Made by a program: the position numbers and the translations under genes
Shown: positions 11,375-54,076 of the stretch, one piece after another
Position numbering within the stretch: the first letter of the stretch is position 1
Layout: every line of letters starts with the position of its first letter
The notes under the pieces: generated by a model
The model's database searches: none
The model's input: the letters and a program-made list of their open reading frames with translations, nothing else
What the model was told of the DNA's origin: nothing
Origin: a virus
IMG/VR virus record: IMGVR_UViG_3300029374_000001
Coordinates: 1 to 64,000 of that record
DNA length: 64,000 nucleotides
Direction: 5' to 3' (one strand)

Positions 11375-11380
11375 TTTTTT

Positions 11381-11791: not shown

Positions 11792-11792
11792 T

Positions 11793-12278
11793 TTATTTTA
11801 CTTCCTTAAAAACAACCTTATTCACGTCATTACTAAATTGAATGCGAAGAGCTTTATCTTTATGGCCACCTCTTTTCTTTTTACTCTCCTTTCTAATTTC
11901 AAAACTGGGATCATTCCACATACAATAGTAATAATTTTCAATCTTACGTATAAATACGAAAATCTCATTAATAGCATCGATAGTAAATTTTAAAGATCGA
12001 TCATTATCGGCCAACATATCAGCGTCTGCTATAAGATACCCCATTGGCGTTTTGATTTTATCCATCGTTTCGACAAATACTCTACTATGAATATATTTAC
12101 TATTACATAGTATCGATAGCTGATATAAATAAGATTTGATTTCTTTACAATTTCGATATACTCTTACATATTTTATTGGATTGATCATTATATAAGACAG
12201 TTTCTTGTTAATATTATTCATATGAGAATTAAAATATTTTCTAAAACTTTTATTAATTTTTACAATATTTGATTTCAT
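11793..12278 (-). CDS. hypothetical protein
   Basis: 161-aa ORF. Confidence 0.45.
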   Translation of the reverse strand: MKSNIVKINKSFRKYFNSHMNNINKKLSYIMINPIKYVRVYRNCKEIKSYLYQLSILCNSKYIHSRVFVETMDKIKTPMGYLIADADMLADNDRSLKFTIDAINEIFVFIRKIENYYYCMWNDPSFEIRKESKKKRGGHKDKALRIQFSNDVNKVVFKEVK

Positions 12279-12303
12279 AATATCTACTCCTTTTAAGTAT
12301 ACC

Positions 12304-12322
12304 CTCTGGTATCATAGAAAAT
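12304..12322 (-). promoter_or_regulatory. conserved 19-mer CTCTGGTATCATAGAAAAT (gene sense TTTTCTATGATACCAGAG), about 37 nt upstream of the ATG of 11793..12278. Candidate phage-RNAP promoter.
   Basis: Identical 19-mer at 28264..28282 in the same position relative to a start codon. Variants at 17571..17590, 29296..29310, 33892..33913 and 40288..40310. Confidence 0.4.
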
Positions 12323-12387
12323 ATATCAACAAATTTACTTCATCTTTATAATATATAATTTTAAAATATTTAGATTACAAAAGATAC

Positions 12388-12413
12388 CCAGAAGCTCATA
12401 TGAGCTTCTGGGA
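12388..12413 (-). terminator. hairpin CCCAGAAGCTCatatGAGCTTCTGGG followed in minus sense by tatcttttgtaatc
   Basis: 11-bp perfect inverted repeat downstream of the 12426..14786 gene. Confidence 0.55.
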
Positions 12414-12425
12414 TTTATATTACAT

Positions 12426-17538: not shown

Positions 17539-17644
17539 ACTATTCTAAACTCCTTTCAAATGTTATTACATTGTATCATATAGATTTATTTGCTATATTC
17601 TCAACACATCAGTAATTTGAACTATATTGAAGGAGGAATTACCC

Positions 17645-18553
17645 GTGGATAAAAACGAAGACCTTATGGACTTCGGGCAATCTTTGTTCGAAGTAGATAC
17701 CCAGTCTGCCACTGTCCCCGTAGAAGTTGAAGACAAACCAAAACGAGGCAGACCTAAAAAGAAGCCAGTAGAAGAAGGACCTTCTGTACGTAATAGAAGT
17801 CCATTAAATTCTGACATGACTTATTTAGAAACATATAATGCACCCGCTCAAATGATGGCTGGTGTTATTGCACAAATAGATGATCTTGGCAACAAAATTA
17901 CAGCAGATCTGAATAGTGTGCGTTCTTCTCGTACACTTAAGAATAAATACTTATATATCTCCAATCTCTCCGGCGCTTTAACCGGTATTATGTCCAGCAA
18001 GATTAGTGCTATCAGAGAACTTAGAGGTATGGTAACTGATTCTAATAATTTTGAATTGAAAAAGCAGAATCAGCTTAAAATTGACGAAAGAGATTCTGAT
18101 GATAAGATTGTCATGGATATGTACAATGCTTATCTGAATGCTCCTGTTGGCAAATTACAGACTGGTCCTATGAGTCCTGTATCGGCTGGTTATATCAACA
18201 GTAATACAGATGGCGTAAATATTACTCATAATGACAATGGAGCCTATGCTATGTCTTCTGAACCTGGATACGATGCTTACTTACAGAATCTAAGTCCAGA
18301 ACAGAAAGCAATGGTCAATGAAAAGAATCCATATATTGAAACTGTTTTGGTTTACAATCAATCCGACCAATCAAAATGGTTTGAAGTTATTGATACTAGA
18401 ACAGGTATGCAAGTTCCTGGTATTCCTGTACCGCCCGATTTTGTCAGAGACGGATGCAATGTCAATATTAGAGCTGGTATAGCTCGTAATGCCAATTTAA
18501 ATCAAACTTTTAAATTAAAAGTTGTTGGTGTAGGACAGTCTGATGAATTCTAA
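17645..18553 (+). CDS. hypothetical protein with an AT-hook (KRGRPKKKP)
   Basis: The ORF track starts at a TTG at 17627. A GTG at 17645 has AAGGAGG 8 nt upstream and is the more plausible start. Confidence 0.5.
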   Translation: MDKNEDLMDFGQSLFEVDTQSATVPVEVEDKPKRGRPKKKPVEEGPSVRNRSPLNSDMTYLETYNAPAQMMAGVIAQIDDLGNKITADLNSVRSSRTLKNKYLYISNLSGALTGIMSSKISAIRELRGMVTDSNNFELKKQNQLKIDERDSDDKIVMDMYNAYLNAPVGKLQTGPMSPVSAGYINSNTDGVNITHNDNGAYAMSSEPGYDAYLQNLSPEQKAMVNEKNPYIETVLVYNQSDQSKWFEVIDTRTGMQVPGIPVPPDFVRDGCNVNIRAGIARNANLNQTFKLKVVGVGQSDEF

Positions 18554-18592
18554 TTCATCAATATAATATATAACAAAAAATAAATTTATGGA

Positions 18593-18626
18593 AATATTCT
18601 ATACTCTATATAGAGTATAGAATATT
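18593..18626. repeat. 34-bp perfect palindrome AATATTCTATACTCTATA|TAGAGTATAGAATATT inside a 745-bp ORF-free region
   Basis: Read directly. No ORF on either strand between 18554 and 19298. Confidence 0.7.
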
Positions 18627-19298
18627 ATCCTATGGTATACATCATAGTAAGAGAAGTATTGACCGATTTATCCTATTTGATATATAAACTATCTCTCTGG
18701 AAGGTTAATCAAACTTTTATCCTATTAAATAGGTTATGATCAATTTAAATATGAGCTGGATGAGAGCATCATATTTATGGATGAATTTTATAAATTTTTC
18801 CATAAAACACACCGCCCTTCCTGGACGCACGTATTCAATACTTCTCTTTGGTTATGAAAGACATCAGATGGTATCTCTGTTTATATAGTCCATATACAGT
18901 GCTACCTATCATAAATCGCCTCGAATTCGTTTTCTCCCTTATGTATTATAGATACAATACAATCAATTTACACAAAAGCTCTATAAGAACTTTGTACTTA
19001 TCGATCGTTTTAAGGAATTTGGACAACATGATTTAATTATCCTTTCCAGGCTTGATATTTCTGATGTCTTTCACATTTCTATAATATATCTTTTAAAATA
19101 TATTAGATTACAAATTGTATTAAAAATAAAATTTATATAAAACATTATAGTAGAAATGAAAAGTTAATGAATCTCCCAATGCCAACTCATTAACCGCAGA
19201 TTTCTAAATTTATTTACTTCCCATGATATAAATGATCTCTACCTGTATTGGGTAGAGATCATTTATATTGACACTTTATTAAATGGAGGTATATAACG

Positions 19299-20408: not shown

Positions 20409-20564
20409 TCTGAACATCATATTGATACATAGGGCGAAACTATGTATCTCATATAAAAGATATATTATTAATGCGGGCTTTTAATATATCTGATTCTTAC
20501 TCCATGCTTTCTCATTGCTCACATTGCCGTCTGGGCCTTGAGTAAAGTCCTCCTAAAATATAAT

Positions 20565-20592
20565 ATACCAAGAGTCATATGACTCTTGGTAT
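20565..20592. terminator. bidirectional terminator ATACCAAGAGTCatatGACTCTTGGTAT between convergent genes
   Basis: 12-bp perfect stem with AT-rich flanks on both sides. Confidence 0.6.
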
Positions 20593-20602
20593 ATTATATT
20601 GC

Positions 20603-22059: not shown

Positions 22060-22123
22060 TTAACCACCTCTTCCTGTATAAATATCTCTATACTCAGAAT
22101 TATAATATATAATTATAAAAAAT

Positions 22124-22149
22124 AAAAGAGACTCATATGAGTCTCTTTT
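22124..22149 (-). terminator. AAAAGAGACTCatatGAGTCTCTTTT
   Basis: A-run, 9-bp stem, T-run. Downstream of the adhesin gene. Confidence 0.6.
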
Positions 22150-22161
22150 ATTTATGATGCA

Positions 22162-24252
22162 TTAAGCATTTACTCTTACACGTTCAATGGTTGGTGTACC
22201 ATTTTTGTTCTGAGAAATCACATCAATACGGAAACGAGCAATTTCTGGTTCGAATTCGTTTAGCATTCTTTCCGGAACTTCATATCCCATCTGAAGAGCT
22301 CTATAGATAATAGCGCCGAATTCATAACGAGTCATAACTCTATCTCCCTTGAATTCTCCATCAAGATAGCCTTTGATAATATCGTTGCCTGCCAGCGTAG
22401 CAATATATTCATAGGCCCAATGATTTTTCGGAACATCTGGGAAGATTTTGATCTTGCCTGTATCGATAGCATCTCCAATAACCAACTGTTTGATAACGCT
22501 TCTAAGATTTTCTACTTCAGCACGAAGATCTTTAATCTCTTTTGCCATAGCAATCTTAGAACCATTGACGTGGTTTCCTCCACCAATCTTAAGACTTACG
22601 CCCGCATTGATTGCATTTTCTCCACCACCGAAAGAAGCTCCCAAAGAAACCATGGTATCCTCGTTCGGACGATAGAATGCACCAAGCGCTGTTGCATTAG
22701 CATTCTTATAATGACCATATCCTACAGCAATATCCAACTTGCTGTCTGGATCAAAGTCTAACGGATGAAGAGCTGCCAAAGCGGCTGCATTCGCACCAAC
22801 CTTATTAATACGTCTATCCAGTTTACCCATCCGACCATTAATATTCGTAATATTATTGCGAACGTCATGGATATCCTGATGGATATTATGAATATCGTTG
22901 TTGATATTGGTGATACTGTCTTTGTTCTGCTTAATAGCAGCATCCAATTTCTGATCTGCTTCTACCAAACTTGTAGAACCTTTGATATAGGTTGTAGAAG
23001 AATACTGACTGGATAAATTGGTAGGATCTGTAGCTCCTATCGTATTGGTGATATTCAAATCTGCAGCTTTACGAGCATCCTGTTCTTTCTTCAGATCAGA
23101 AGCTTTAGCTACATCTTTGATTACCACATCACCAAGCTTAGTACCAGAGTAGTTATCTTTAACTTCCAGAGTTACCTTGTTATCAGTAGAGATATCATAT
23201 TCTCCAGGCTGCACAGAGTTGTCTTTCATCTTACCTTTAAGATTGACTTTGGAGCCATCTTTCTTTTGCAAAGTAATGGTACCATCATCATTGATTGATC
23301 CATCAACAATGTTGTTACCATGAACAACTTCTGCTAAAGACCTAAGCTGCGCTACATTGACAGCATCATCAGAACTTGTGCCAGCGGCTACATTAACGAT
23401 CTGACGCTTATAGCGATCATTACCTATGCTGACTGCTCCGGATGTGGACTCCCATACTGACCATCCGGAATGTTTTGGATTAATACTCATGGTTGCAGGA
23501 TCCCAACCGAGAACACCTTTATCAATATTGGCTTTTGATTCTTTGCCCAATGCAATACCACCTTTAACATTAGTGGTTGAGAACTTGCCAATTGCTATAG
23601 CATCGTCAGCATATGTTTCTCCACCGATACCAATTACATAATCTCCTCTAACAGTCCATGCATTAATACCAACAGAATATTTCCCATAAACATTGGTGGT
23701 AGTACTGCCAATTCCTAATGAATCGCCACCATATACTCGAGTTTCTCCACCGATGGCAGTACTACCACCTGCAAGCGCCATTGCCTGTGTACCGATAGCT
23801 ACAGCATGATACCCATGTGCTTTTGCCAAATTACCAAACGCAACAGCATCCTGACCAATGGCTTCGGCATTAACACCCATTGCAACGGCTTCGCCATCAC
23901 CATGACTCTTAGCTGTACATCCAGAACCCACAGCAACAGAAATCCAATTTCTGCTGTTGTCTTCATTGGTACCATCAACTTCATTATGGTTGCCTATAGC
24001 AATAGCGTCAAAACCTTTAACTTTGTTGTACACACCTACAGACAGTCCCATAGATGCATTTTCCATTTCCGATTCTCTTCCGATCATAGTACTCCATTCG
24101 GAATTTTTCATTTTGAGTTTATTCCCAATAACAGTATATTCGGTACTACTTGTGACAGTATTATTAGCACCTTTCTCAATATTTACTGCATACGTTACTG
24201 ATGTTACGCATAATGCGCACATCGTAGTTAATAAAATCTTTTTGTTTCTCAT
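22162..24252 (-). CDS. trimeric autotransporter adhesin (YadA-like head, neck and beta-barrel anchor) with a C-terminal SLH domain. Negativicutes-type architecture.
   Basis: Signal peptide MRNKKILLTTMCALCVTSVTYA with AAGGAGA upstream (the ORF-track Met at 24285 is probably too early). Head repeats AVAIGTQAMALAGGSTAIGGET. Neck DAVNVAQL. Anchor AALAALHPLDFDP...GYGHYKNANATALGAFYRPNEDTMVSLGASFG. The C-terminal FPDVPKNHWAYEYIATLAGNDIIKGYLDGEFKGDRVMTRYEFGAIIYRAL is an SLH consensus. Confidence 0.8.
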   Translation of the reverse strand: MRNKKILLTTMCALCVTSVTYAVNIEKGANNTVTSSTEYTVIGNKLKMKNSEWSTMIGRESEMENASMGLSVGVYNKVKGFDAIAIGNHNEVDGTNEDNSRNWISVAVGSGCTAKSHGDGEAVAMGVNAEAIGQDAVAFGNLAKAHGYHAVAIGTQAMALAGGSTAIGGETRVYGGDSLGIGSTTTNVYGKYSVGINAWTVRGDYVIGIGGETYADDAIAIGKFSTTNVKGGIALGKESKANIDKGVLGWDPATMSINPKHSGWSVWESTSGAVSIGNDRYKRQIVNVAAGTSSDDAVNVAQLRSLAEVVHGNNIVDGSINDDGTITLQKKDGSKVNLKGKMKDNSVQPGEYDISTDNKVTLEVKDNYSGTKLGDVVIKDVAKASDLKKEQDARKAADLNITNTIGATDPTNLSSQYSSTTYIKGSTSLVEADQKLDAAIKQNKDSITNINNDIHNIHQDIHDVRNNITNINGRMGKLDRRINKVGANAAALAALHPLDFDPDSKLDIAVGYGHYKNANATALGAFYRPNEDTMVSLGASFGGGENAINAGVSLKIGGGNHVNGSKIAMAKEIKDLRAEVENLRSVIKQLVIGDAIDTGKIKIFPDVPKNHWAYEYIATLAGNDIIKGYLDGEFKGDRVMTRYEFGAIIYRALQMGYEVPERMLNEFEPEIARFRIDVISQNKNGTPTIERVRVNA

Positions 24253-24352
24253 TCTAATCTCTCCTTTTAAAAATAACGAATACATATATTATATATGCTG
24301 GCACTTATATAATATATAATTTCAGAAAAAATAGATTGCAAAAAAAAAATAA

Positions 24353-26850: not shown

Positions 26851-27429
26851 TTAATTTCCTGTGGAACCAAATCCACCTTTTCTGGTTTCTTTTGCATTAT
26901 CTTCTTCTACTGTATAATAAGAAAGAATAATTCCCTGTGCTACCTTATTACCAGGTTTAATCATAACAGTAATTCCATCAATGGATGGGTCTGTAGCTCT
27001 GACAGATAAAATCTTATAATCTTCATCATATTCATATTTCTTAGGAGAATGTACCTTAGGATATGTTCTAAGAGCTAAGATAATATCTCCTTCATTAGAT
27101 TCATTATTATAATAATCTTTATCGATAATTCCTACAGAATTAGCTAAGAAGTAGCCATATTTAGTAGAACTGGAACGCTGTACAATCTGCAAGAAGTTTT
27201 CAGGATTCAAATCAATCTTAATACCAGTAGGTACCATGGTTGGTTCCATGCCATTGATATATGTATAGATAGGAGTTACAAAATCGTATCCTGCTGCATA
27301 TTTAGTGGATCTTTTAGGAAGTTGTATACGATCATAAGAAGCTTTAATTTCTTCTTCAGACATCGCATCATTATAGAATTTCTTAATATCTTTTCTAAAT
27401 GCTTCAAAACTAACCTTTTCAAATTTCAT
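26851..27429 (-). CDS. dut: dUTP pyrophosphatase
   Basis: Motifs AAGYDF, GIIDKDYY and the C-terminal RKGGFGSTG. Confidence 0.85.
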   Translation of the reverse strand: MKFEKVSFEAFRKDIKKFYNDAMSEEEIKASYDRIQLPKRSTKYAAGYDFVTPIYTYINGMEPTMVPTGIKIDLNPENFLQIVQRSSSTKYGYFLANSVGIIDKDYYNNESNEGDIILALRTYPKVHSPKKYEYDEDYKILSVRATDPSIDGITVMIKPGNKVAQGIILSYYTVEEDNAKETRKGGFGSTGN

Positions 27430-27531: not shown

Positions 27532-27855
27532 TTAGATACCGAATGCTCGGCATCCAATGATTCTACCGTCTGGATCCCTTACGGGATCGCTCGGCACAAC
27601 CAAGTCCGTTCTGTCTGGTAATGCAGACTTAACGAACGCAGATACAATATAAATTATATCTGGGTCATATTCAGGTAAGCCTTCGGGTTCACCAAATACA
27701 ACCTTGATTGTAGGGATATCATCGATATCCCCAACGGTTTCATTTCTCTGGGAAAGTCTAATGAGTTTCCCAGATGCTTTATATATGGAAATAACTTGAT
27801 TGTTTTCTCCATATACTGTGACATCATGCGGCGTCATGTTTATAATTGATTTCAT
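27532..27855 (-). CDS. hypothetical protein. Its GC content is clearly above the local average.
   Basis: 107-aa ORF. Confidence 0.45.
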   Translation of the reverse strand: MKSIINMTPHDVTVYGENNQVISIYKASGKLIRLSQRNETVGDIDDIPTIKVVFGEPEGLPEYDPDIIYIVSAFVKSALPDRTDLVVPSDPVRDPDGRIIGCRAFGI

Positions 27856-27865
27856 AGTCTTCTCC

Positions 27866-28234
27866 TCACTTCTCTCTGGAATTAACTCTACAGAAATTCT
27901 TAAATGTTCGTATCTTTATAAAGATATTATCAACTTCACAACCAAACTCACATATATTCTCTCTTATAATTCTATCATAAAAGAGATCCTTTATGGACTT
28001 ATCTATAAAATCCATAGATTCGCATATAGTATCTAATGATACACATGCGTCATTAGTTTTACATTCATGAATAGTATATAATGCCAGTTTTATTTGACGA
28101 TATATACTCTGAAAATTCTTTCTGTCTTTGAACAATTTGTGTTCAAAGATATGCTCCAAACTGGAGTGTGTACTATCCATAAATACAGATAGTACCTCTT
28201 CATTTTTCTTAAAATCAAAATCAATAACTCTCAT
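27866..28234 (-). CDS. hypothetical protein
   Basis: 122-aa ORF. Confidence 0.45.
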   Translation of the reverse strand: MRVIDFDFKKNEEVLSVFMDSTHSSLEHIFEHKLFKDRKNFQSIYRQIKLALYTIHECKTNDACVSLDTICESMDFIDKSIKDLFYDRIIRENICEFGCEVDNIFIKIRTFKNFCRVNSREK

Positions 28235-28263
28235 AATATAATCCCCCTTTTGACTACTATAAT

Positions 28264-28282
28264 CTCTGGTATCATAGAAAAT
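28264..28282 (-). promoter_or_regulatory. second identical copy of the 19-mer CTCTGGTATCATAGAAAAT, about 37 nt upstream of the ATG of 27866..28234
   Basis: Identical to 12304..12322. The same intergenic region also has the terminator-like hairpin CCAGAGCattataGCTCTGG (28359..28378) followed by a T-run in gene sense. Confidence 0.4.
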
Positions 28283-28385
28283 TTGATACCATTGTATCTC
28301 TTCATCTCTATATTATATAATTTATAAAAGATTAGATTACAAAAAAGAAAATCCAGAGCATTATAGCTCTGGATTACACAATATA

Positions 28386-28829
28386 CTACTTATCATTATT
28401 TATCTTTTTAGGGCTAGATACAACAAGTGTATTTTTAGATTTGGATGCTGTAATATAACAAAAATCTCTAAATTTAATTGTATTTGCACAAATTATTCGT
28501 AAATCGTCAATAATTGATTTTATGTAATCTTCTTTGGAAAGTCTAATGCTATTGGTATAAAGAATATTTCTAGCTAACTCTTCTATACGATCTAATAGTT
28601 TTTCTAAAGTTTTAATATGAATAAGTTTACCATTATTATCAGCAATAAAAGTTCCCAGCATCTCCCAATAATCAGACATCTGGGCGAAGTAAAGATCTAT
28701 AGATGTATAATCTGGTAAATTTGACAACTTTGCGTCTTCAAAGCGACGAGACATATTTACATCTACCTTTGTAAGATAATTAACTGTTTCTCCTAAAAAC
28801 GGTTCATCAACTTGTATTGTATTTTTCAT
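28386..28829 (-). CDS. hypothetical protein, weak paralogue of 29343..29705
   Basis: 147-aa ORF. Shares IHIKT(L/F)E...FR(D/N)(F/H)C with 29343..29705. Confidence 0.45.
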   Translation of the reverse strand: MKNTIQVDEPFLGETVNYLTKVDVNMSRRFEDAKLSNLPDYTSIDLYFAQMSDYWEMLGTFIADNNGKLIHIKTLEKLLDRIEELARNILYTNSIRLSKEDYIKSIIDDLRIICANTIKFRDFCYITASKSKNTLVVSSPKKINNDK

Positions 28830-28852
28830 AAGAATTATCTCCTTCTCACATT

Positions 28853-29212
28853 TTATACTTCTACACCAAAATCAGTATACAATACAATCTTAATAAATGC
28901 TTTAGCCACATCGTTTAGCATTCTGAATTGTTTCATATATACATACTGATCTTCTCCATTATATGATACGAGAGAATCACATACAAAACGAACTCCTCCA
29001 TATCTCTCTATATCTTCTTTAGACAATGTTTTTAAGTCGTCTATTTCTAATACCATATCCGGATTAGACTCTAAATCTTTCAGCATATTAGTGAAAGTTT
29101 CTTTTTCCATTTCATTTGTATTATCTTTGGCTAAGTCTTCATTATTTTCATCAATAACCAAATACGTTTTTCCATCTTCTTGATATGTGTAAAAATCGTT
29201 TAATTCCAACAT
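28853..29212 (-). CDS. hypothetical acidic protein
   Basis: 119-aa ORF preceded by the duplicated 60-nt leader. Confidence 0.45.
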   Translation of the reverse strand: MLELNDFYTYQEDGKTYLVIDENNEDLAKDNTNEMEKETFTNMLKDLESNPDMVLEIDDLKTLSKEDIERYGGVRFVCDSLVSYNGEDQYVYMKQFRMLNDVAKAFIKIVLYTDFGVEV

Positions 29213-29270
29213 AATATCTTCTCCTTTTTATAAAATATAAATGAACTTCTCATACTTATAATATATAATT
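29211..29270 (-). promoter_or_regulatory. 60-nt leader/promoter module ending AAAAGGAGAAGATATTATG. The same module is present at 50586..50644.
   Basis: 59 of 60 nt identical between the two copies, with one small indel. Confidence 0.5.
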
Positions 29271-29313
29271 GACTGTAAAATTAGAAATTATATTATAGTA
29301 TCATATAAAAAAT

Positions 29314-29339
29314 AAAGTGGGAGTTTAAACTCCCACTTT
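29314..29339 (-). terminator. AAAGTGGGAGTttaaACTCCCACTTT followed in minus sense by a T-run
   Basis: Inverted repeat plus T-run downstream of 29343..29705. Confidence 0.55.
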
Positions 29340-29342
29340 ATT

Positions 29343-29705
29343 TTAATTCTCAGATACAATAAGACAATGATTTCTAAACGTAATAGTGCTTCTATGAAGT
29401 CGGCTTGTAAAATCGTGTATAGCATGGATTCCAGCATTCTGATCAATAGTCATGATTAAACTATCAATGTCGAGTAAAATATATTCAAAAGTTTTAATAT
29501 GAATTTGTACGGGCCTACGATAAGTCATATCTTTTAACAAATTGATATTCTCTAAAAGTTCAATAAAAAATGCTCCCAGATTTTGGTCACTACCACCAGC
29601 AATAATTGCGCTTGATATTTCTTTTATAGTGCTTTCACTTTCTTGAATATAATCTTTAAGCGTCTCTAAAAATTCTCCATCATCAATTTCAATTACATTT
29701 TTCAT
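29343..29705 (-). CDS. hypothetical protein
   Basis: 120-aa ORF. Confidence 0.45.
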   Translation of the reverse strand: MKNVIEIDDGEFLETLKDYIQESESTIKEISSAIIAGGSDQNLGAFFIELLENINLLKDMTYRRPVQIHIKTFEYILLDIDSLIMTIDQNAGIHAIHDFTSRLHRSTITFRNHCLIVSEN

Positions 29706-29825
29706 TTTGTCGTCCTCCTTTTAAAGAACAAATACAATAGGATATTATAATTAATATCCAAACTCAATTATATAGTATATAATCAAAAAATATAATATCT
29801 TCAGAGTCATATGCCTCTGGAGATA

Positions 29826-31445
29826 TTACTTTGACTTCTTTTTCTTTTTAGGTTCAGGAATAGGTAATTCCATACAAACCGCGTTAGAGTTGGATATAAA
29901 TCGTCTATTGGCTTTGGATTGCAATGCTTCATAATAATTCTCATTCAGGATAGTATCATCCTTGTCCCATGTTCTGGTAGTATAGTTAAATTTACTATTA
30001 GAAAATACTTCTTCTGTCATAGATGTCGCATACTTTTCAAAGATTTCTTTCTTTGCTTTATAGCATCCTTTGACTGCATCAAAGCCTACATCTACAAAAT
30101 CTATATACGTCGTATCTTTGTCTCTGGTTCTGCCTAAAGATTGTCTAGCTATGACTTTAGATTTAAATACTTCTCCTAAGACCATAGTCATCTTTAATCC
30201 TTTAATATCAATAGCGGCTCCACAAGATTTAGTTGTAGATAAAATAATCATCTTATCCAACTGTTGTTCTTTTTCTATCTTGTTAGTAATTAGAGTGGTA
30301 TAGATTCCTACTTGATCTTTGAGTTCGGGATAATTTTCTATAATCCAATCGTATACAGTCTGTATAGCTCGATTGGTACCAATATAGATCAACGTTTTTC
30401 CTGTTCTGAAGATCATTTCCATAGCTATGGTCAAGATCTTATAGAACTGCTCATTCTTAATCAAATATGAACAGTATCTATTTCGATCAAATCCATATCG
30501 ATTGGTACAATATCGCTCTTGCCCTGGAGTAGGATAAGTATTGTATAATACAGAGATATATCTGGTTCGAGGATCTCTATCTTTATCAAACAGATCTATC
30601 TTAGGTACATTTAAGAAAGTTTCTTGATATATTCTGTCTTCTTCTCTATCTGAACGAAATGGTGTAGCGGTCAGATAGAGTGTCTTATATGTATTGGTAA
30701 AGAAATCAATCTTCCAAATATTATCAAAATCCAAATGAGCCTCATCATAGATCTTAATACCTACTCTAATCTTCTCAAATAAATCTCCTACCTTATCCCA
30801 TCCATAATTAGATGCATAAGAATGAAGAGTTTGATGAGAAGCCAAGAAGTATTTTACTTTAGAGATATTGACCATATTATTCAATATCATAGCAATACTG
30901 CCACTTCCTACAATAGGATAGATTTCTGTAGGAGAACAATCAGTATATTCCATAATACGATCTCTCCACTGTTCAATCCATCCCAAAGAAGAAGTGATCA
31001 TAATAGATCTCATTCCCATCATAGCAGAGCAGCATATTGTTACATATGTTTTACCTGCTCCTGTATTTAGGTTGACTCCTAATTGAGAATATGGTTTGGT
31101 CTCTTGATGCATTCCTTCTCCCAAGATAAATTGTATAGCTTCTCGCTGTACATCGTCTCTTGGTTTATAGCTCAATCGGAATGGGATATTGGTATCATAT
31201 GGGTCTACATTTGGACTGTATTCACATTCTGTTTTAAACAATCTTTCTAAAGAAGAAATATCCATTCCTCTGGGTAAAGTTAATATATGATTTTCTTCAT
31301 CATACATAATTGCTTTATAGGTACCTGCTGCAGGATCCAGTTTATCTGGCACCTGAAAGAACGTTTCCAGGTCTGTTTGGGAACCCTGAATATAGCCAAA
31401 CACTTTTATACACGTTCTAAAGGCTACTATACGGACCCCACTCAT
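29826..31445 (-). CDS. SF2 DEAH-box DNA helicase (UvsW-like)
   Basis: Walker A NTGAGKTY. Motif II KIYDEAHLDF. Motif VI ARQSLGRTRD. Confidence 0.75.
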   Translation of the reverse strand: MSGVRIVAFRTCIKVFGYIQGSQTDLETFFQVPDKLDPAAGTYKAIMYDEENHILTLPRGMDISSLERLFKTECEYSPNVDPYDTNIPFRLSYKPRDDVQREAIQFILGEGMHQETKPYSQLGVNLNTGAGKTYVTICCSAMMGMRSIMITSSLGWIEQWRDRIMEYTDCSPTEIYPIVGSGSIAMILNNMVNISKVKYFLASHQTLHSYASNYGWDKVGDLFEKIRVGIKIYDEAHLDFDNIWKIDFFTNTYKTLYLTATPFRSDREEDRIYQETFLNVPKIDLFDKDRDPRTRYISVLYNTYPTPGQERYCTNRYGFDRNRYCSYLIKNEQFYKILTIAMEMIFRTGKTLIYIGTNRAIQTVYDWIIENYPELKDQVGIYTTLITNKIEKEQQLDKMIILSTTKSCGAAIDIKGLKMTMVLGEVFKSKVIARQSLGRTRDKDTTYIDFVDVGFDAVKGCYKAKKEIFEKYATSMTEEVFSNSKFNYTTRTWDKDDTILNENYYEALQSKANRRFISNSNAVCMELPIPEPKKKKKSK

Positions 31446-31749: not shown

Positions 31750-33861
31750 CTATTCTTTAGGAACCTCAAATACAGCATCAATTAATTCTCTCTTCTTAGG
31801 AGCTTTAACATGATTGGATAAGAAGTCTTGTGGCCTTTCCATAAAGAACAAATCCATCAAAGATGGCTGTGTCTTTTCAAAAGACAATGGATAACATAAT
31901 GCATCATTCAATTTCTGATAAATCAGAGAATTGATAATGCTGGGATTATCTTTCAAAGCTTGATCCAATGTTAAGATCTGATATTCTTCTCCAGGATTCT
32001 CCCATTCTGGTAAGCGCAATCTAGTTCTTGTAGAACGAATCTGATTCATCAGAATAACTTCCAGATGAACCGATTGAATAGTCAACTTACCTTTGATAAT
32101 GAGTTGAACCAATCTCTGTAGAAGAGAGTCTTTGTCGTAGTCAATCTCTCCTATACTACTCTTCTTATTGATCAGCTTCTCAATATCTTTCAGATTCTTA
32201 CCAATATCATTATTCAATATCTGGATGAAGAAGATATTCATCATACTGTCTTCATCGACCAGATCTTTCAGATATACTAAATATTGATCATCTTCTGTTA
32301 GTTCTGCTTTTGTAGTCAGATATGTATTAAACTCTTCCGTCAAATACATTTCTGTATCTTCTGCAGATTTAATAGTGTACCGATCGCCTTTTTTATCCAC
32401 CAATATGAATTCCGTAATATATTTATCCAATGAAGTCTTCTGATCTTCCATACTATCTACATAAGAATCATCAGAATCTGAATAAATAGTGTTGGTGTCT
32501 ATAAGAATATATGCTCCGTGCGTATCTTCTTTTGGAGATATAGAGTTTACATCAATTTCAAAATACTTATCAAATGGAGCAGCCCAATTGAATTTTTCTA
32601 TCACCGTTTCCAACAAGTGCTTTGCTGATAACTGCTTCTGTGTTAGCTGTGCAGATAGTATTTCAGAAGCTAATTTACCAGGGCGAATGTTCCGATTGAT
32701 ATAAGCTAACTCTCCATAACATCTTCTGCATATCCCATGCCCATGCGCTGCACTAGCACAAGTCATAGGAGAATATAAATAAATTGTTTTGCCTATCAGA
32801 TACGTATCTTTCTTAGCGTTAATTAAGTAATCCATTCCATCTGGATCTAGTTTATAATATCGTCCATCTAACATGGATAAGAACTTTTTGTTTTCTACTA
32901 AGATTGTTTGGAAATTGGATGTATTGCAACAATAGTCCATATCCTGGTTTAACATGGTATCCATATTATTGACACCAATAATACGAGCAAATGTACCCGA
33001 CTTGCCAGTATTCTTTTTTGTTTGAATCTGAGCGACTCTGGAAGATGCAGAATCTACAAACTGAGCAGCTACTGTATCCAATCCACCCATAATATAAGAC
33101 TTATCGATAACGTATGGATGAACTCCACCCTGTCCATTTGGTTTAGAACCAATATTAATTGCGAATTCTTTATACTGTCGTTTATTGATACCTTCCCCAG
33201 TCATAAAAGAATTCTTCATACAATGATCATGTCCTAAATACTTCTCAGATTCTTCAATAATTTCTATGCTATCTTCTGCTTTCTTTAATCCATCGTCTTT
33301 AACATCTTCTATCTTCGAATCCGATACAGATGTGTGGATTAATTCGTTAAACTCTTTCACCCTAGACATTAAGTCTATGGTGTCTTTTAAGTTGATTGTA
33401 TTGGATATATACATGGAAAAGAGATCAATATCTTTGAACTTATATAACGTATCATCTAAGATATTATTCAATTCTGTTGGAGATACGATTCTTTTGATCT
33501 TATCAATATAATGATCTAAATAATCTTTAATGGCATTTTGTGTCATAGCCTCAGGGAAGAACAACGCCTCTCCGCTGATAGGCTGGTTAGACCGTACAAC
33601 AATATACCACATCATAATATTAAAATATAAATCGAAAACTGATAACTGTATTATTCCATCATTTACCAGTTCTACATCAATCATAAAATTTTGTACTTCT
33701 TCTAATTCTATCCCATCTTTCATCAGATTTAATATTCCCTCATAATAATCTGACCAATTTGATGAGTTAATTTCGGATGTTTTAATATGACAACGTCCAT
33801 GAGTTGCCAAACTTGCAAACATGTAATAATTTTGTAAGTTTGATAATTGCGGATTAGACAT
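31750..33861 (-). CDS. multisubunit RNA polymerase beta-prime subunit, C-terminal fragment (bridge helix and trigger loop)
   Basis: [39 protein letters not shown] resembles RpoC [84 protein letters not shown] resembles RpoC [46 protein letters not shown]. No NADFDGD motif, so the N-terminal half is encoded elsewhere. Confidence 0.85.
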   Translation of the reverse strand: [703 protein letters not shown]

Positions 33862-34057
33862 CAGATTTTCTCTCCTATCATATTTTTACACATTTTCTAT
33901 GATACGTCCCTCGTAAAATCTTGTCAGTTATTTCATTTCATCTTCTTAAACTCCTTTTCTATAATTCGTTTACTTTCTGAGAACTCTTAATAAAAAGTTC
34001 CATTCTAAATCAATCTCGATTATATAATATATATTTGAATAAAAATATAAAAAGAGA

Positions 34058-34083
34058 GGTAGAGACTCATATGAGTCTCTACC
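34058..34083. terminator. GGTAGAGACTCatatGAGTCTCTACC with A/T-rich flanks
   Basis: 11-bp perfect stem. Confidence 0.5.
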
Positions 34084-34748: not shown

Positions 34749-35179
34749 ATGAAACCTAGTCAAAGTATTGCTTTTCAAGATTATAAAGATACAATGAGAA
34801 GAAACATCAGATATTTATTTCCTCAATTAAGTAGTGACGAGTTGGAACGAGCTATAGAATATTCCATAAATAAGAGAATTATAAACTCAGCTTGTCAACT
34901 GAATGACACATATAAGAATGCTGTATATAATACTAATATGTTAGAATTAACAGAGTATATCATGCATGATCGACCAATACTGACATCCTTCGGATGTCTA
35001 TTTCATAGGCATGGAGATATAGATAATCCATTATACATGATGATACAAGAATTTGCAGATAGACGTAACAGATTTAAGAAAGAAATGCTAAAGCATAAAA
35101 AAGGTAGTGAGCAATATAAACATTTTGACTTAGCTCAAGCCGTCGCTAAGGTGGATGTCAATGCTGAAACAAACGCATT
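34749..35179 (+). CDS. family-B DNA polymerase part 2, exon 1. Ends in the first half of motif B, ...AKVDVNA(F)
   Basis: AAGGAGAT RBS then ATG. The C-terminal RRNRFKKEMLKHKKGSEQYKHFDLAQAVAKVDVNAETNAF corresponds to the pre-motif-B region. K-VDV-NA corresponds to K-xxx-NS of KxxxNSxYG. The frame is closed by a TAA at 35181, which lies inside the intron. Confidence 0.75.
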
Positions 35180-35605
35180 CTAATGCGTTTGGGATAGGCC
35201 TCTTTATAAAGTAATTTATAGAGAGAATCCTGGTGAATTGCTGGAAACCGGTAAAGATCTGATAACTACAATATATTTTTAATATATGAATGTGACGAAA
35301 GTCAGAAACAATATCAGATATAACCTAAGCTGAAATAAAAGAGTAGTATATATGAAATTCTTACTTATTTAAAAGAATATATATATTATTTGCTAAGGGT
35401 ATAATAAGAAAATCCGCAATCAGCAGCGAAGCTTCTATATATTATAGAAGAACGTTCAACGACTATTATGTAGAGTACAAGCGTATTCGAAGTGCCAGGC
35501 TCCAATATAATATTGGATGAAGATATAGTCTGTCCATGTATGAGAGTACATGAAGTTCATAAGAGAACTGGGTAGATGTAGCGAATCTATTCGAACACAT
35601 GAGAT
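35180..35605 (+). ncRNA. group I self-splicing intron with no ORF. Boundaries are accurate to only a few nucleotides.
   Basis: Core elements readable in the sequence: P-like GAATTGCTGGAAACCGG, Q-like AATCCGCAATCAGCAGC, R-like GTTCAACGACTAT, S-like GAAGATATAGTCTGTCC (consensus AAGAUAUAGUCC). A P1-type hairpin AACGCATTctAATGCGTT spans the exon1/intron junction. Splicing restores KVDVNA(F/I)YGAMGQ, matching T4 KIKINSLYGALGN. Confidence 0.8.
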
Positions 35606-37352
35606 CTACGGCGCTATGGGGCAACCATCTTCTATATTTTATAACTTTGAAGTGGCAGCTTCCATTACCAGACAAGGAAGAGCTTCTATTGCAGCATCTA
35701 TTATGCTCTTTGAGTCTTTCTTAGCTAACAATATTAAATTTGGATCTTTGAACGAAGTGATTATGTTCATTGATCATATTGTATTAATGAAACCAACTAG
35801 ACAATATGAAGACCATCGAATCTTAGATAGAGATGTCTCTATCCAAGAAGTCTTTGATAAACTAATGAGTTCTTGTGGATATCGATGGAAACCAGATCAT
35901 ACAGAAGCCAATATTATCTGGAAAATTTTACATCAATTATCCCAATTTCATTTAAACAGACTCTATTATAAAAATAATATCTATGCTTTCTTTAATAATA
36001 CCGCACCCAAAGACTTCTTATTGGAGTTATTATATTCTTTGGATTCTCCATTTATCGATCCCAATTCTCCACCACCAATGATTAAGGCTAATTTGGATGT
36101 ATTGGTAGATATGGTCAAAGAGTATATTTATTATCCATATCAGATCATCGATAAAATAGAACGAGTAGAAACATTGTATCGTCAAATCGATTTAGTAACC
36201 GATACAGATTCTTGTATTATTTGTTTAAATCCATGGTATGAATATGTAGCCAATCTAACCAAAGATCTGGATATCGATCTGAAACATTATGAATTGGATA
36301 TAATTGGATTGTTGAATAAAGAAAATCCCAATGATGCATCTGATTTGAAAGAAGAAAGTAAAACAGAATATATCTACGATTTTAGAAATAAAGAAATTTT
36401 GGAAAGAAAACGATTAGTAGATCCATTTAAAATTATTCCAGAAGACGCTATGAGATATAGCATCATCAATATACTGGCATATATCATTAGTAAGCTATTA
36501 CGAGATTACTTCGATCGTATAAGCATTAAGAATAATGTAACTAATGATGCTCATAATTTTTGTTTGATGAATATGAAGAACGAATTCTTATTCTTACGGA
36601 TGTTATTGTCCGATGCTAAGAAGCATTATGCGTCTATTGTAGAACTTCAGGAAGGTCATAAAGTTCCCTTAGATAAGCAATTAGATATTAAAGGATTACA
36701 GATTGATAAGTCTGTTGTACCAGAATCTACTAAAGAAGCTCTTGGAAATATTTTACATGAAGATGTATTACGACCAAATTATATTGATCAAATGAAGATC
36801 ATCAATAAATTGGCTGTTCTGGAAAAGACCATCTATGATGATATCTATAATGGCGGATTGAAATACTATAGTCCTAAAAAGCTTAAACCATTTGTTACAT
36901 ATAAGAATCCAATGAGTACACAGCAGGTTAAAGCTTCTATTGTTTATAACTTATTTAGAGATGAAGATGAGGCATATATCAATATTGATGAAAATAATTC
37001 TGTATTGATTATTGGAGTTAATATTGATGCTCATTCATTAGAATCTTGTAAACTAAAAGAATCGGATCCTGAGAAATATGAAATCATGAGAAAGATTATT
37101 TATGAGAATCCAGTAATTGAAGTTTCTCAGAATAAAATTGCTGTGAAGATATTCAATGATAATCTAGCTCTAAATAGTCGAAAAATTACTAGTATAGCTA
37201 TTCCTAGAGATAGTCAAACACCTAAATGGATACTAGAGTTTATTGATTATGCCAGCATAGTTAAAGATAATATCGGTACCTTCCCATTGAAGAGTATTGG
37301 TATTACTAAGCTAGATACGAACAGTGCGTACAGTGGCATTATCAATCTATAA
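35606..37352 (+). CDS. family-B DNA polymerase part 2, exon 2 (motif B second half, motif C, KKxY, thumb)
   Basis: YGAMGQPSSIFYNFEVAASITRQGR resembles T4 [25 protein letters not shown]. Motif C is YRQIDLVTDTDSCI. AKKHYASIV corresponds to KKRY. The ORF-track start at 35550 is an internal Met within intron and exon sequence. Confidence 0.8.
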
Positions 37353-37916: not shown

Positions 37917-37928
37917 TTTGTATCATTA

Positions 37929-37960
37929 TAATCCATAGACTCATATGAGTCTATGGATTA
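37929..37960. terminator. TAATCCATAGACTCatatGAGTCTATGGATTA, followed by T8 on plus and convergent with the minus gene
   Basis: 14-bp perfect stem. Confidence 0.6.
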
Positions 37961-37975
37961 TATGTGTAATTTTTT

Positions 37976-40234: not shown

Positions 40235-40447
40235 GTTAACTTTCCTCCAATCATTTTAGTATTCTTCATATAGAAGAAATTTAGAGAATTTTTAGTATAT
40301 TCATAGAATATACCAGAATAAAATAGTTAGATCTATAAATAGATCAAATTATATTATACTAATTACTCACTCAGATTGGGGATGAATGAATATCTTCGTA
40401 AATAATTATCTAATATACTTAAGTGTTATCTATATAAATTAAGATTC

Positions 40448-50587: not shown

Positions 50588-50670
50588 AATATCTTCTCCT
50601 TTTGTAAAATATAAATGAACTTCTCATACTTATAATATATAATTAAAAAAAAATAAAAGTCAATAGAATA

Positions 50671-54049: not shown

Positions 54050-54076
54050 AATATATTCCTTCTTCCTTTATTGTTT

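What the first reader, a model, noticed from the sequence alone, without database searches (positions are those of the whole stretch)
28235..28385. Recurrent intergenic module of terminator hairpin plus conserved 19-mer TTTTCTATGATACCAGAG about 35 nt upstream of start codons
The identical 19-mer occurs at 12304..12322 and 28264..28282. Both copies are in gene sense and about 37 nt upstream of an ATG. Both are preceded by a terminator hairpin and the shared sequence TAGATTACAAAA. Variants (C)TATATGATAC or CTATGATAC occur at 17571..17590 upstream of DNA polymerase part 1, at 29296..29310, at 33892..33913 and at 40288..40310. The last two are in the opposite orientation. A short conserved TATG-containing element recalls the late promoters of phiKZ-type phage RNAPs, so this is a candidate promoter class for the phage-encoded RNAP. 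Alternatively it is a binding site for a phage regulator.
Basis: partly seen in the sequence, partly recalled or inferred. Interest (0 to 1): 0.55.

Follow-up and report, generated by a model that had tools for sequence, protein, structure and literature searches.

The report
Early-promoter cassette with conserved leader hairpin
The repeated intergenic module is a terminator plus an AR9-type jumbo-phage early promoter, and the conserved 19-mer is not the promoter but a box in the transcribed leader, a fairly ordinary phage regulatory cassette with one unexplained part.

Summary
ATTTTCTATGATACCAGAG occurs twice, exactly, on the minus (gene-sense) strand. Each copy sits in a ~150-nt spacer that is 82% identical to the other: terminator hairpin, TTTTGTAATCTAA, an AT-rich block, the 19-mer, a Shine-Dalgarno site, ATG.

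The promoter reading of the 19-mer is not supported. The window belongs to an uncultivated jumbo phage with split multisubunit RNA polymerases. Its closest cultured relatives are AR9 and PBS1. Its spacers carry TATATATTAT-N6-G, the mapped AR9 virion-RNAP early promoter. All 10 copies that have the G are intergenic and in gene sense. Both modules contain this motif 20-22 nt upstream of the 19-mer, which places the 19-mer at about +20 to +40 of the leader.

In relatives, the box ATTTTCTATGATAC(C) recurs in at least six different early leaders. In four of them it forms the loop and 3' arm of a hairpin with compensatory changes. An inverted copy lies in the leader of an RNAP beta'-like gene and is conserved. 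The box never stands alone upstream of a gene.

The cassettes bound gene insertions and replacements, as PeSL cassettes do in T4-type phages.

My best reading is a cis-regulatory leader RNA element. Its function is inferred, not shown.

The parts
28350..28375 (-). Intrinsic terminator hairpin of module A (AATCCAGAGC-TATAAT-GCTCTGGATT), followed by a T-tract
   Evidence: Terminator scan; sequence
28332..28342 (-). Upstream promoter element TTGTAATCTAA, at about -39 to -29. It sits a fixed 12 nt upstream of the AT-rich promoter core
   Evidence: repeat family D5. The combined pattern is confined to one phage clade, apart from two unrelated AT-rich contigs
28303..28319 (-). AR9-type early (virion RNAP) promoter TATATAATAT-AGAGAT-G. 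The predicted start site is the G at 28303
   Evidence: AR9 consensus from PMC5312081. The start site is inferred, not measured
28267..28291 (-). Leader hairpin TGGTATCA / AATTTTCTA / TGATACCA (8 bp stem, 9-nt loop), at +13 to +37
   Evidence: Fold; covariation; covariance model hit of 65.8 bits
28264..28282 (-). 19-mer ATTTTCTATGATACCAGAG, copy A (+22 to +40). It makes up most of the loop and the whole 3' arm of the hairpin
28243..28251 (-). Shine-Dalgarno region AAAAGGGGG. The ATG is at 28232-28234
   Evidence: Sequence
27866..28234 (-). Downstream gene, 122 aa, with no family match. It is precisely absent in relatives L149, L274 and L277
12387..12412 (-). Intrinsic terminator hairpin of module B (CCCAGAAGCTC-ATAT-GAGCTTCTGGG)
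12370..12380 (-). Upstream promoter element TTGTAATCTAA of module B
12341..12357 (-). AR9-type early promoter TATATATTAT-AAAGAT-G. The predicted start site is the G at 12341
12304..12322 (-). 19-mer copy B (+20 to +38). It has no 5' arm. Only a weak 5-bp pairing, ATACC/GGTAT, is possible with downstream sequence, and that pairing is lost in L002, L003 and L214
   Evidence: covariance model score of only 17 bits
12287..12294 (-). Shine-Dalgarno region AAAAGGAG. The block AAAAGGAGnAGATATTATG is shared with the cassettes at 29.2 kb and 50.6 kb
   Evidence: repeat family D17
11793..12278 (-). Downstream gene, 161 aa, with no family match. It is not detectably similar to the 122-aa gene of module A (BLASTP E = 40)
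33892..33905 (+). Inverted exact copy of the box ATTTTCTATGATAC. It lies in the 156-nt leader of the RNAP beta'-like gene 31750-33861. The 24-nt block GGTATCATAGAAAATGTGTAAAAA is invariant in a relative about 83% identical whose flanks have diverged
29296..29310 (-). 13/15 variant TTTTATATGATACTA, in gene sense, about 45-60 nt upstream of the predicted start site of the 29.25 kb early promoter
19071..19115 (-). Third copy of the extended early promoter (TTGTAATCTAA-N12-GATATATTAT-N6-G). It has no box
   Evidence: repeat family D5
24299..24343 (-). Fourth copy of the extended early promoter (TTGCAATCTAT variant), upstream of the YadA/SLH adhesin gene
   Evidence: repeat family D5
29226..29270 (-). 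Second cassette family (promoter plus leader), 98% identical to 50600-50644, in front of an unrelated gene
   Evidence: repeat family D15
50600..50644 (-). Partner of the second cassette family
   Evidence: repeat family D15

Best explanation
Each module is a composite early-gene regulatory cassette of an AR9/PBS1-like jumbo phage. Its parts, in order, are:
- An intrinsic terminator that ends the upstream unit.
- An extended early promoter, TTGTAATCTAA-N12-TATATA(T/A)TAT-N6-G. I infer that the injected virion RNA polymerase fires from it and starts at the G of GATGAAG.
- A 63-69 nt leader.
- A Shine-Dalgarno site and the start codon of a small early gene of unknown function.

The 19-mer lies inside that leader, at +20 to +40. 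It is one copy of a clade-wide box, ATTTTCTATGATAC(C). In most leader types the TGATAC(C) part of the box is base-paired with a GTATCA partner. In the 28.3 kb copy the box forms the loop and 3' arm of an 8-bp hairpin.

I infer that the box acts on the RNA. The likeliest role is as a recognition element for a trans-acting factor, either a phage or host RNA-binding protein or an RNase. That factor would set the translation or lifetime of a subset of early mRNAs. A nut-like antitermination role is a less likely possibility.

The cassettes also serve as recombination joints. Genes are inserted, deleted and replaced at their edges. This explains why near-identical spacers precede unrelated genes.

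Shown here: the anatomy, the promoter-motif statistics, the stem covariation, and the cassette-bounded gene changes. Inferred: the start site, the polymerase used, and the function of the box.
For: Promoter identity:
- All 10 copies of TATATATTAT-N6-G are intergenic and in gene sense, 17-156 nt from a start codon apart from one at 18556-18572 with no sense gene nearby. The window is 91% coding.
- Of 14 TATATATTAT copies, the 10 with the G are these intergenic ones. The 4 without the G are in coding sequence or the intron.
- The motif equals the dRNA-seq-mapped AR9 early promoter AAATATATATTAT-(6N)-G+1 (PMC5312081; review PMC7598289).
- The window encodes split beta/beta'-like RNAP subunits. 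The best hits of the beta-like subunit 6590-8980 are PBS1-like Bacillus phages, then AR9 and PBS1 itself (about 33% identity).
- Sigma-70-like sites are not enriched: 96 found against 113 expected.

Position of the box:
- In an unbiased set of 63 cassettes retrieved by the promoter pattern alone, the box lies between the early promoter and the Shine-Dalgarno site in leader types A, B and C.
- Box and covariance-model searches of the same clade DNA add types E, F and I at the same position.
- These leader types precede different genes.

Base pairing:
- On 10 distinct A/C/F/I-type sequences, 85% of cells are paired, against 21-52% for slid registers.
- Four pairs change on both sides, in 12 cells, and G-U intermediates occur.
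- 0 of 500 shuffles reach the observed covariation score.
- Different stem versions coexist in one contig (L277). This argues for base pairing rather than recognition of double-stranded DNA by a protein.

Cassette mobility:
- L001 shares only the spacers with the window at the nucleotide level.
- Window 27857-28230, one gene, is precisely absent in L149, L274 and L277.
- L277 has an extra cassette plus gene.
- L285 replaces window 11392-12333 with another leader and gene, starting just after the predicted start site.
- The proteins downstream of the two modules are unrelated (E = 40), although the spacers are 82% identical.
- The spacers are mosaics of repeated blocks (families D5, D15, D17).
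Against: - There are no transcript 5' ends for this phage. The start site and the polymerase are inferred from AR9, whose RNAP subunit is only about 33% identical.
- The 12.3 kb copy has no 5' arm. The hairpin model scores it at only 17 bits, so the structure does not explain both copies of the 19-mer.
- Single-sequence folds of the leaders are not significantly stable: z = -1.4, +0.3, -0.2 and +1.1.
- Inverted copies exist and one is conserved: in the beta' leader and upstream of the type D promoter. An RNA element that must be read in sense does not predict this, and it fits a DNA site better.
- The covariation rests on 10 related sequences. Some of them were retrieved with the box itself as the query.
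- Within A-type orthologues, the 19-mer is no more conserved than the rest of the leader.
- No Rfam family matches.
Confidence: 0.55

Rival explanations
1. DNA operator. The box is a double-stranded DNA binding site for a phage-encoded regulator. Bound near early promoters (at +20 to +40, about +110, or -55 to -41), the regulator would shut off or tune early transcription, for example as a roadblock.
For: - The box occurs in both orientations and at variable positions, but almost always within about 110 nt of an early promoter.
- The inverted copy in the beta' leader is a 24-nt invariant footprint in a relative whose flanks and partner arm have diverged.
- The 12.3 kb copy keeps the sequence without the hairpin.
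Against: - Six of nine contexts are in gene sense, between the predicted start site and the Shine-Dalgarno site.
- The stems covary with G-U intermediates, and different stem versions coexist in one contig. Protein recognition of double-stranded DNA does not need or predict this.
- The arms occur both as GGTATCA-N9-TGATACC and as TGATAC-N5-GTATCA. These two geometries are incompatible for a single dimeric binder.
Confidence: 0.2
2. Second promoter. The TATG-containing 19-mer is a promoter for the non-virion phage RNAP (a phiKZ-late-like or middle class), placed behind the early promoter so that the gene is expressed continuously.
For: - The box is in gene sense, 25-38 nt upstream of the ATG, and contains TATG.
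- phiKZ late promoters are T-3 A T G+1 (PMC7598289).
- AR9 genes that are expressed continuously carry both an early and a late promoter (PMC5312081).
Against: - The box never occurs as the sole upstream element of any gene in about 520 kb of clade DNA.
- It is absent from the spacers of the 40-58 kb gene block. Ten gene-sense spacers across the window, most of them in that block, carry the AR9-type late motif AACA-N6-TA instead. That motif is intergenic in 16 of 83 copies, against about 7 expected.
- The 19-mer contains no AACA-N6-TA.
- A linear promoter does not predict stem covariation.
- The inverted copies would drive transcription away from any nearby gene.
Confidence: 0.07
3. No function of its own. 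The 19-mer is a stretch of a duplicated and recombined spacer that happens to be unmutated. It is a passenger of cassette duplication, gene conversion, or a decayed 5' gene fragment.
For: - In an alignment that is 82% identical, a run of 19 identities is not very unlikely. My estimate is about 0.7 per 175 columns if identity were spread uniformly (alignment).
- The spacers are clearly mosaics of repeated blocks.
- A 15/18 match lies 25 nt into the neighbouring gene 11381-11791, with ATGAA at a similar offset.
- In other genomes the A-type and B-type boxes differ at 1-4 positions.
Against: - The box persists in at least six otherwise dissimilar leaders, and in inverted form, across relatives down to about 81-83% identity.
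- The hairpin is maintained by compensatory changes.
- Within the leader, the identity flanking the box between copies A and B is only about 50%.
Confidence: 0.15

Closest known systems
Early (virion RNAP) promoters of Bacillus jumbo phage AR9, AAATATATATTAT-(6N)-G+1 (Lavysh et al. 2017, PMC5312081). More generally, the AT-rich early motifs of phiKZ-related phages (PMC7598289)
   Same: - The core TATATATTAT is the same.
- The 6-nt spacer to a conserved G is the same.
- Placement is strictly intergenic and in gene sense.
- The phage encodes split beta/beta' RNAP subunits, and the beta-like subunit examined (6590-8980) has the AR9/PBS1 group as its nearest cultured relatives.
   Different: - A subset here carries an additional fixed upstream element, TTGTAATCTAA, 12 nt upstream of the core. 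I did not find this reported for AR9.
- The host is different. It is probably a Negativicutes bacterium of the human mouth; the phage carries a YadA/SLH adhesin gene.
- Start sites are not mapped here.
PeSL cassettes (promoter-early stem-loop) of T4-type phages (Arbiol et al. 2010, PMC2839356; Comeau et al. 2014, PMC4122927)
   Same: - Both are composite units of a terminator stem-loop plus an early promoter.
- Both are repeated many times among small genes of unknown function.
- Both are nearly identical in front of unrelated genes.
- Both lie at the borders of insertions, deletions and replacements between related phages.
   Different: - The promoter here is of the jumbo-phage virion-RNAP type, not sigma-70-like.
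- The cassette extends through a conserved leader and Shine-Dalgarno block.
- Mini-circles were not examined.
Protein-recognised leader RNA hairpins of phages, such as lambda nut boxB and the MS2/PP7 coat-protein operators (from my own general knowledge)
   Same: It is a small hairpin in an early leader, with a conserved loop and covarying stem, present in only a subset of transcripts.
   Different: - No binding partner is known.
- One of the two window copies lacks the hairpin.
- Inverted copies exist.
- The hairpin does not cover the Shine-Dalgarno site or the AUG.
phiKZ late promoters, T-3 A T G+1 (PMC7598289)
   Same: A TATG tetranucleotide in gene sense upstream of a gene.
   Different: - The box always lies near an AR9-type early promoter and never stands alone.
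- The clade's candidate late motif is AR9-like, AACA-N6-TA.

Membership tests
AR9-type virion-RNAP early promoter | Extended AT-rich consensus (AA)ATATATATTAT | tested here: met
   The window has 14 exact copies of TATATATTAT. Module B carries TATATATTAT and module A carries TATATAATAT.
AR9-type virion-RNAP early promoter | A conserved G (the +1 base) exactly 6 nt after the consensus | tested here: met
   Ten of 14 copies have the G, where G makes up about 16% of the sequence. Those 10 are exactly the intergenic, gene-sense copies. The 4 without the G are in coding sequence or the intron.
AR9-type virion-RNAP early promoter | Located upstream of operons, intergenic, in gene sense | tested here: met
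   All 10 copies are intergenic in a window that is 91% coding, and nine lie 17-156 nt from a start codon.
AR9-type virion-RNAP early promoter | The phage encodes split multisubunit RNAPs of the phiKZ/AR9 lineage | tested here: met
   PHROG RNAP beta families match 6590-8980 and 31750-33861, and a polymerase family matches 921-2717. The best tblastn hits of 6590-8980 are the AR9/PBS1 group.
AR9-type virion-RNAP early promoter | Transcripts start at the G, early in infection and independently of protein synthesis | not testable with these tools
   This needs 5' end mapping in infected cells.
phiKZ-type late promoter (TATG, G = +1), proposed for the 19-mer | TATG overlapping the start site | tested here: inconclusive
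   TATG is present in the box, but a tetranucleotide alone carries no information.
phiKZ-type late promoter (TATG, G = +1), proposed for the 19-mer | Serves as the promoter of late (virion) genes, so it should stand alone upstream of them | tested here: not met
   The box is absent from the spacers of the 40-58 kb gene block. In about 520 kb of clade DNA it is never the only upstream element of a gene, and it lies within about 110 nt of an early promoter in eight of nine contexts.
AR9-type late promoter, AACA-(6N)-TA/G, proposed for the 19-mer | AACA, 6 nt, then T and A or G | tested here: not met
   The 19-mer and its flanks contain no such motif. The motif does occur in 10 other gene-sense spacers.
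PeSL-like regulatory cassette | Composite of a terminator stem-loop plus an early promoter | tested here: met
PeSL-like regulatory cassette | Many near-identical copies among small genes of unknown function | tested here: met
   There are 4 copies in the window (family D5). The promoter pattern finds 63 distinct cassettes, 61 of them in one clade, with at least 14 matches in the 260-kb contig.
PeSL-like regulatory cassette | Insertions, deletions and replacements between related phages are bounded by the cassettes | tested here: met
   Three cases were found.
PeSL-like regulatory cassette | Sigma-70-like promoter | tested here: not met
   Sigma-70-like sites are not enriched, and the modules are not among the listed sites (36 weaker sites were not shown). 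The similarity to PeSLs is therefore functional, not membership.
Known structured RNA family (Rfam 15) | A match at the gathering score | tested here: not met
   There is no hit for the module. The best E-value is 1.8, far below the gathering score.
Conserved leader RNA hairpin (defined here) | Base pairing maintained by compensatory changes | tested here: met
   85% of cells are paired, against 52% or less for slid registers. Twelve cells change on both sides, and 0 of 500 shuffles reach the observed score. This holds for the 28.3 kb copy only. The 12.3 kb copy fails (17 bits).

The most novel reading that the evidence does not exclude
The box and its conserved inverted copy form a trans-acting RNA circuit. 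Leaders of several abundant early mRNAs carry AUUUUCUAUGAUACC, often displayed on a hairpin. The leader of the beta'-like RNAP subunit gene carries the exact complement, GGUAUCAUAGAAAAU, about 30 nt upstream of its Shine-Dalgarno site.

Pairing between the two (14 nt in the window, 15 in relatives) would couple the output of the injected virion polymerase to synthesis of this beta'-like subunit, which I take to belong to the second (non-virion) polymerase because the gene has an early promoter. That would make it a timing device for the early-to-late switch.

A related novel reading is that the hairpin is a nut-like site. It would modify a non-canonical multisubunit phage RNAP so that it reads through the terminators that separate the cassettes.
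Probability: 0.07. Interest if true: 0.75.

Novelty: new variant of a known kind. Interest (0 to 1): 0.4.

Why it matters
- The AR9 early-promoter consensus appears to be conserved, almost base for base, in an uncultivated clade of jumbo phages sampled at least partly from the human microbiome. The RNAP subunit compared is only about 33% identical. This gives a ready promoter map for phages that cannot yet be grown.
- The analysis adds two features I did not find reported for AR9: a fixed upstream element, TTGTAATCTAA, and a conserved leader box or hairpin.
- The cassettes behave like the PeSL cassettes of T4-type phages. This extends cassette-mediated gene shuffling to jumbo phages that encode their own RNAPs.
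- The box is a concrete handle for finding post-transcriptional or operator-type control of early genes in this group, about which I know of no published work.

Tried and rejected
1. **Sigma-70 reading of TTGTAA-N17-TATATA.** The consensus scan shows no enrichment and does not list the modules among its reported sites. Dual use by the host RNAP is not excluded.
2. **Leader peptide.** Copy A has a 24-codon ORF from the ATG at the predicted start site to a TGA overlapping the gene's ATG. Copy B stops after 2 codons and L001 after 4. Rejected.
3. **Recent duplication of gene plus spacer.** The downstream proteins are unrelated by BLASTP (E = 40). A loose family with a C-terminal F(R/K)N(F/Y)C motif is suggested only by eye (another possible member in L277).
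4. **Known RNA family.** None matches.
5. **Leader hairpins as a general property of early leaders.** This does not hold. Only some of the 20 motif-predicted leaders fold better than shuffles.
6. **Pairing of the box's CCAGAG with the 3' arm of the terminator.** This does not covary between the copies and was dropped.
7. **Exact scans of IMG/VR with a 14-mer and of metagenomes with a 17-mer.** Most hits were chance matches in unrelated contigs. Only L091, L149, L150, L207 and L214 were relevant.
8. **Megablast of the region against the phage record collection.** No match.
9. **The box as an anti-Shine-Dalgarno sequence.** Only weak U-G pairing in copy B. Not pursued.

Full report
**1. The observation**

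The motif is on the minus strand, which is the coding strand for most of this window. Read in gene sense, ATTTTCTATGATACCAGAG occurs exactly at 28282-28264 and 12322-12304. The 18-mer at up to 3 mismatches gives 3 hits against 0.21 expected. The two complete spacers (28235-28385 and 12279-12425) align at 82% identity. They share the same order of parts:
- a G+C-rich hairpin with a T-tract, called as a terminator at 28350-28375 and at 12387-12412;
- TTTTGTAATCTAA;
- AATTATATA(A/T)TATA(G/A)AGATGAAG;
- a poorly conserved stretch;
- the 19-mer;
- AAAAGG(G/A)G;
- ATATTATG.

Similarity stops at the flanking coding sequences.

**2. What the window is**

GC content is 33%. Three ORFs match phage RNAP families: 6590-8980 and 31750-33861 match RNAP beta families, and 921-2717 matches a polymerase family. 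The best hits of the beta-like subunit 6590-8980 in cultured phages are PBS1-like Bacillus phages, AR9 and PBS1, then Staphylococcus S6-like phages and Yersinia phiR1-37, at about 28-33% identity. A DNA polymerase gene is split by a group I intron. No close phage record exists. IMG/VR holds relatives about 94-96% identical on contigs of 215 and 260 kb. The window is therefore part of an uncultivated jumbo phage of the lineage that encodes its own multisubunit RNAPs.

**3. The real promoter**

Listing all spacers shows a recurrent TATATATTAT. All ten copies of TATATATTAT-N6-G are intergenic and in gene sense. Nine lie 17-156 nt from a start codon, and the tenth (18556-18572) has no sense gene nearby. 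The window is 91% coding.

Without requiring the G, there are 14 copies. The ten with the G are exactly the intergenic ones. The four without it lie in coding sequence or in the intron.

This is the AR9 early promoter, AAATATATATTAT-(6N)-G+1. It was mapped by dRNA-seq and primer extension and assigned to the injected virion RNAP (PMC5312081; review PMC7598289).

Both modules carry the motif: TATATAATAT-AGAGAT-G ending at 28303, and TATATATTAT-AAAGAT-G ending at 12341. By analogy with AR9, transcription starts at the G of GATGAAG. The 19-mer then occupies +22 to +40 in module A and +20 to +38 in module B, and the ATG is at +70 and +64.

The AR9-type late motif AACA-N6-TA is also present in ten gene-sense spacers. 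Most of these are upstream of the 40-58 kb gene block. Overall 16 of 83 copies are intergenic, against about 7 expected. The 19-mer contains no such motif. Sigma-70-like sites are not enriched.

**4. The upstream element**

TTGTAATCTAA lies exactly 12 nt upstream of the AT-rich core in four window promoters (12.3, 19.1, 28.3 kb, and a TTGCAATCTAT variant at 24.3 kb, family D5).

Scanning IMG/VR with TTGTAATCTAA-N13-ATATAWTAT returned 51 loci and 63 distinct cassettes. All but two (L278 and L290, unrelated AT-rich contigs) come from one phage clade, found in samples 7000000238, 7000000431, 3300045988, 3300007206, 3300029056 and 3300008619. The 260-kb contig has at least 14 matches.

This retrieval does not depend on the 19-mer, so it gives an unbiased view of what follows the promoter.

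**5. The box in relatives**

The core ATTTTCTATGATAC(C) occurs in these contexts in the unbiased cassette set and in about 520 kb of clade DNA:

| Type | Example | Arrangement |
|---|---|---|
| A | window 28.3 kb | GGTATCA-aattttcta-TGATACC hairpin |
| B | window 12.3 kb | no 5' arm |
| C | L251, L264, L273, L276, L283 | longer stem: CCAGATATCA ... TGATACCTGG |
| E | L250, L257, L258, L270 | partner arm downstream: TGATAC-ggaaa-GTATCA, next to the Shine-Dalgarno site |
| F | L277 | AGGTATCA ... TGATGCCT |
| I | L285 | AGAGTATCA-agttattta-TGATGCTCT |

All six lie in gene sense, between an early promoter and the Shine-Dalgarno site, with the box ending 25-38 nt upstream of the ATG.

Three other contexts exist:
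- An inverted copy in the leader of the beta'-like gene (window 33892-33905). There, GGTATCATAGAAAATGTGTAAAAA is invariant in L277, a relative about 83% identical whose flanks have diverged.
- An inverted partial copy abutting the upstream element of the type D promoter.
- One copy in coding sequence, conserved in four relatives.

The box never stands alone upstream of a gene.

**6. Structure**

For types A, C, F and I, the helix is paired in 85% of cells, against 21-52% in slid registers. Four pairs change on both sides (U-A/A-U/G-C at one pair; G-C/A-U with a G-U intermediate at another). Twelve cells have double changes, and 0 of 500 shuffles reach the observed covariation score.

Different stem versions coexist in one contig (L277). 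The arms occur in both orders and with different spacing. Base pairing explains this. Binding of one dimeric protein to double-stranded DNA does not.

Three results count against a simple structural element:
- The single-sequence folds are not significant.
- No Rfam family matches.
- A covariance model built from these hairpins scores copy A at 65.8 bits but copy B at only 17 bits.

What the two window copies share is therefore the primary sequence, not the fold.

**7. Cassettes as recombination joints**

- L001 shares only spacers with the window at the nucleotide level, including 94.5% identity over 128 nt of module A placed in front of a small membrane protein.
- Window 27857-28230, the 122-aa gene, is precisely missing in L149, L274 and L277. 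In those contigs the A-type leader is joined to the orthologue of 27532-27855.
- L277 has an extra F-type cassette plus gene between the orthologues of 29343-29705 and 29826-31445.
- L285 keeps the promoter of module B, but from about +7 onward it carries a different leader (type I) and a 91-aa gene in place of window 11392-12333.
- The proteins downstream of modules A and B are unrelated (E = 40).
- A second cassette pair (29226-29270 and 50600-50644, 98% identical) also precedes unrelated genes.
- Module B is a mosaic. Its Shine-Dalgarno block AAAAGGAGnAGATATTATG belongs to that second family (family D17).

This behaviour matches the PeSL cassettes of T4-type phages (PMC2839356, PMC4122927), but with a different type of promoter.

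**8. Mechanism**

Shown: the anatomy, the promoter statistics, the position of the box in the leader, the stem covariation, and the cassette-bounded gene changes.

Inferred: the start at the G, use of the virion RNAP, and the function of the box.

I favour a cis-acting leader RNA element recognised by a trans-acting factor that controls translation or decay of a subset of early mRNAs (confidence about 0.55 for the whole statement, about 0.4 for the RNA-level function alone). The rivals are a DNA operator (0.2), an element with no function of its own (0.15), and a second promoter (0.07). The conserved inverted copy in the beta' leader is the main unexplained fact. It fits a DNA site, or pairing in trans with the sense boxes.

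**9. Verdict**

The promoter interpretation of the 19-mer is wrong in detail, but right in that the module holds a phage-RNAP promoter. The promoter is a new member of a known kind. The extended upstream element and the leader box are new variants. Interest is moderate.

Noticed in passing
window 35179-35552 (+): A group I intron (Rfam RF00028, 61 bits) splits a DNA polymerase gene (34749-35183 and 35550-37352). The intron holds two TATATATTAT copies that lack the +1 G. In AR9, an early promoter inside an intron was mapped experimentally.
   Followed up: partly
window 22162-24285 (-): This 707-aa ORF has YadA head, stalk and anchor domains plus an S-layer homology domain. To my knowledge that trimeric-autotransporter architecture is typical of Negativicutes such as Veillonella. 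It lies behind an extended early promoter (24299-24343). It hints at the host, and at a phage-borne adhesin that is expressed early.
   Followed up: partly
window spacers at 4181, 14827, 34668, 40416, 42094, 43701, 45275, 47830, 52300, 58273 (-): The AR9-type late promoter motif AACA-N6-TA occurs in gene sense upstream of genes, mostly in the 40-58 kb block. In AR9 this motif is read on the template strand and requires uracil DNA. Several of the nearest cultured relatives (AR9, PBS1, phiR1-37) have uracil DNA, so this clade may too. A dUTPase-fold ORF lies at 26851-27429.
   Followed up: partly
window 12387-12412, 20557-20600, 22120-22153, 29793-29828, 34050-34080, 37927-37962, 47213-47259: Many terminator hairpins are built around the same palindromic centre, (G)AG(A/T)CTCATATGAG or GAGTCATATGACTC. 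The terminators are therefore also a repeated sequence family (repeat families D10 and D16).
   Followed up: no
window 18554-19298: This is a 745-nt gap with no long ORF and no Rfam or tRNA hit. It contains an extended early promoter (19071-19115, minus strand) followed by a possible 26-codon ORF. A second early motif at 18556-18572 (minus strand) points antisense into the plus-strand gene 17627-18553. It could be a non-coding early RNA.
   Followed up: no
window 33940-33960 (-): The 156-nt leader of the beta'-like gene holds a mini-ORF, ATG AAA TGA, behind a good Shine-Dalgarno site (AAAGGAG). A short ORF in this position recurs in relatives (L274 identical; L149 and L277 in altered form).
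   Followed up: no
window 10976-12278, 27866-29705; L277 6870-7260: A loose family of small early proteins (120-160 aa) ends in F(R/K)(N/D)(F/Y/H)C. Several of them follow box-bearing cassettes. Pairwise similarity is below BLASTP significance.
   Followed up: partly
window 53434-55075 and 59873-63892: There are eight diverged coding repeats of about 91 nt across the genes 53285-54049 and 54077-55393, and internal repeats in the 1339-aa ORF. These are probably repeated structural domains of virion proteins.
   Followed up: no
window 11749-11766 (-): A 15/18 match to the 18-mer lies 25 nt into gene 11381-11791, with ATGAA at nearly the same offset as in the leaders. This could be chance. It could also be a trace showing that the leader derives from a 5' gene fragment.
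   Followed up: partly
window 40288-40310: A perfect hairpin, GTATATTC-TAT-GAATATAC, lies in the 213-nt spacer upstream of 39113-40234. It is not the box and its function is unknown.
   Followed up: no
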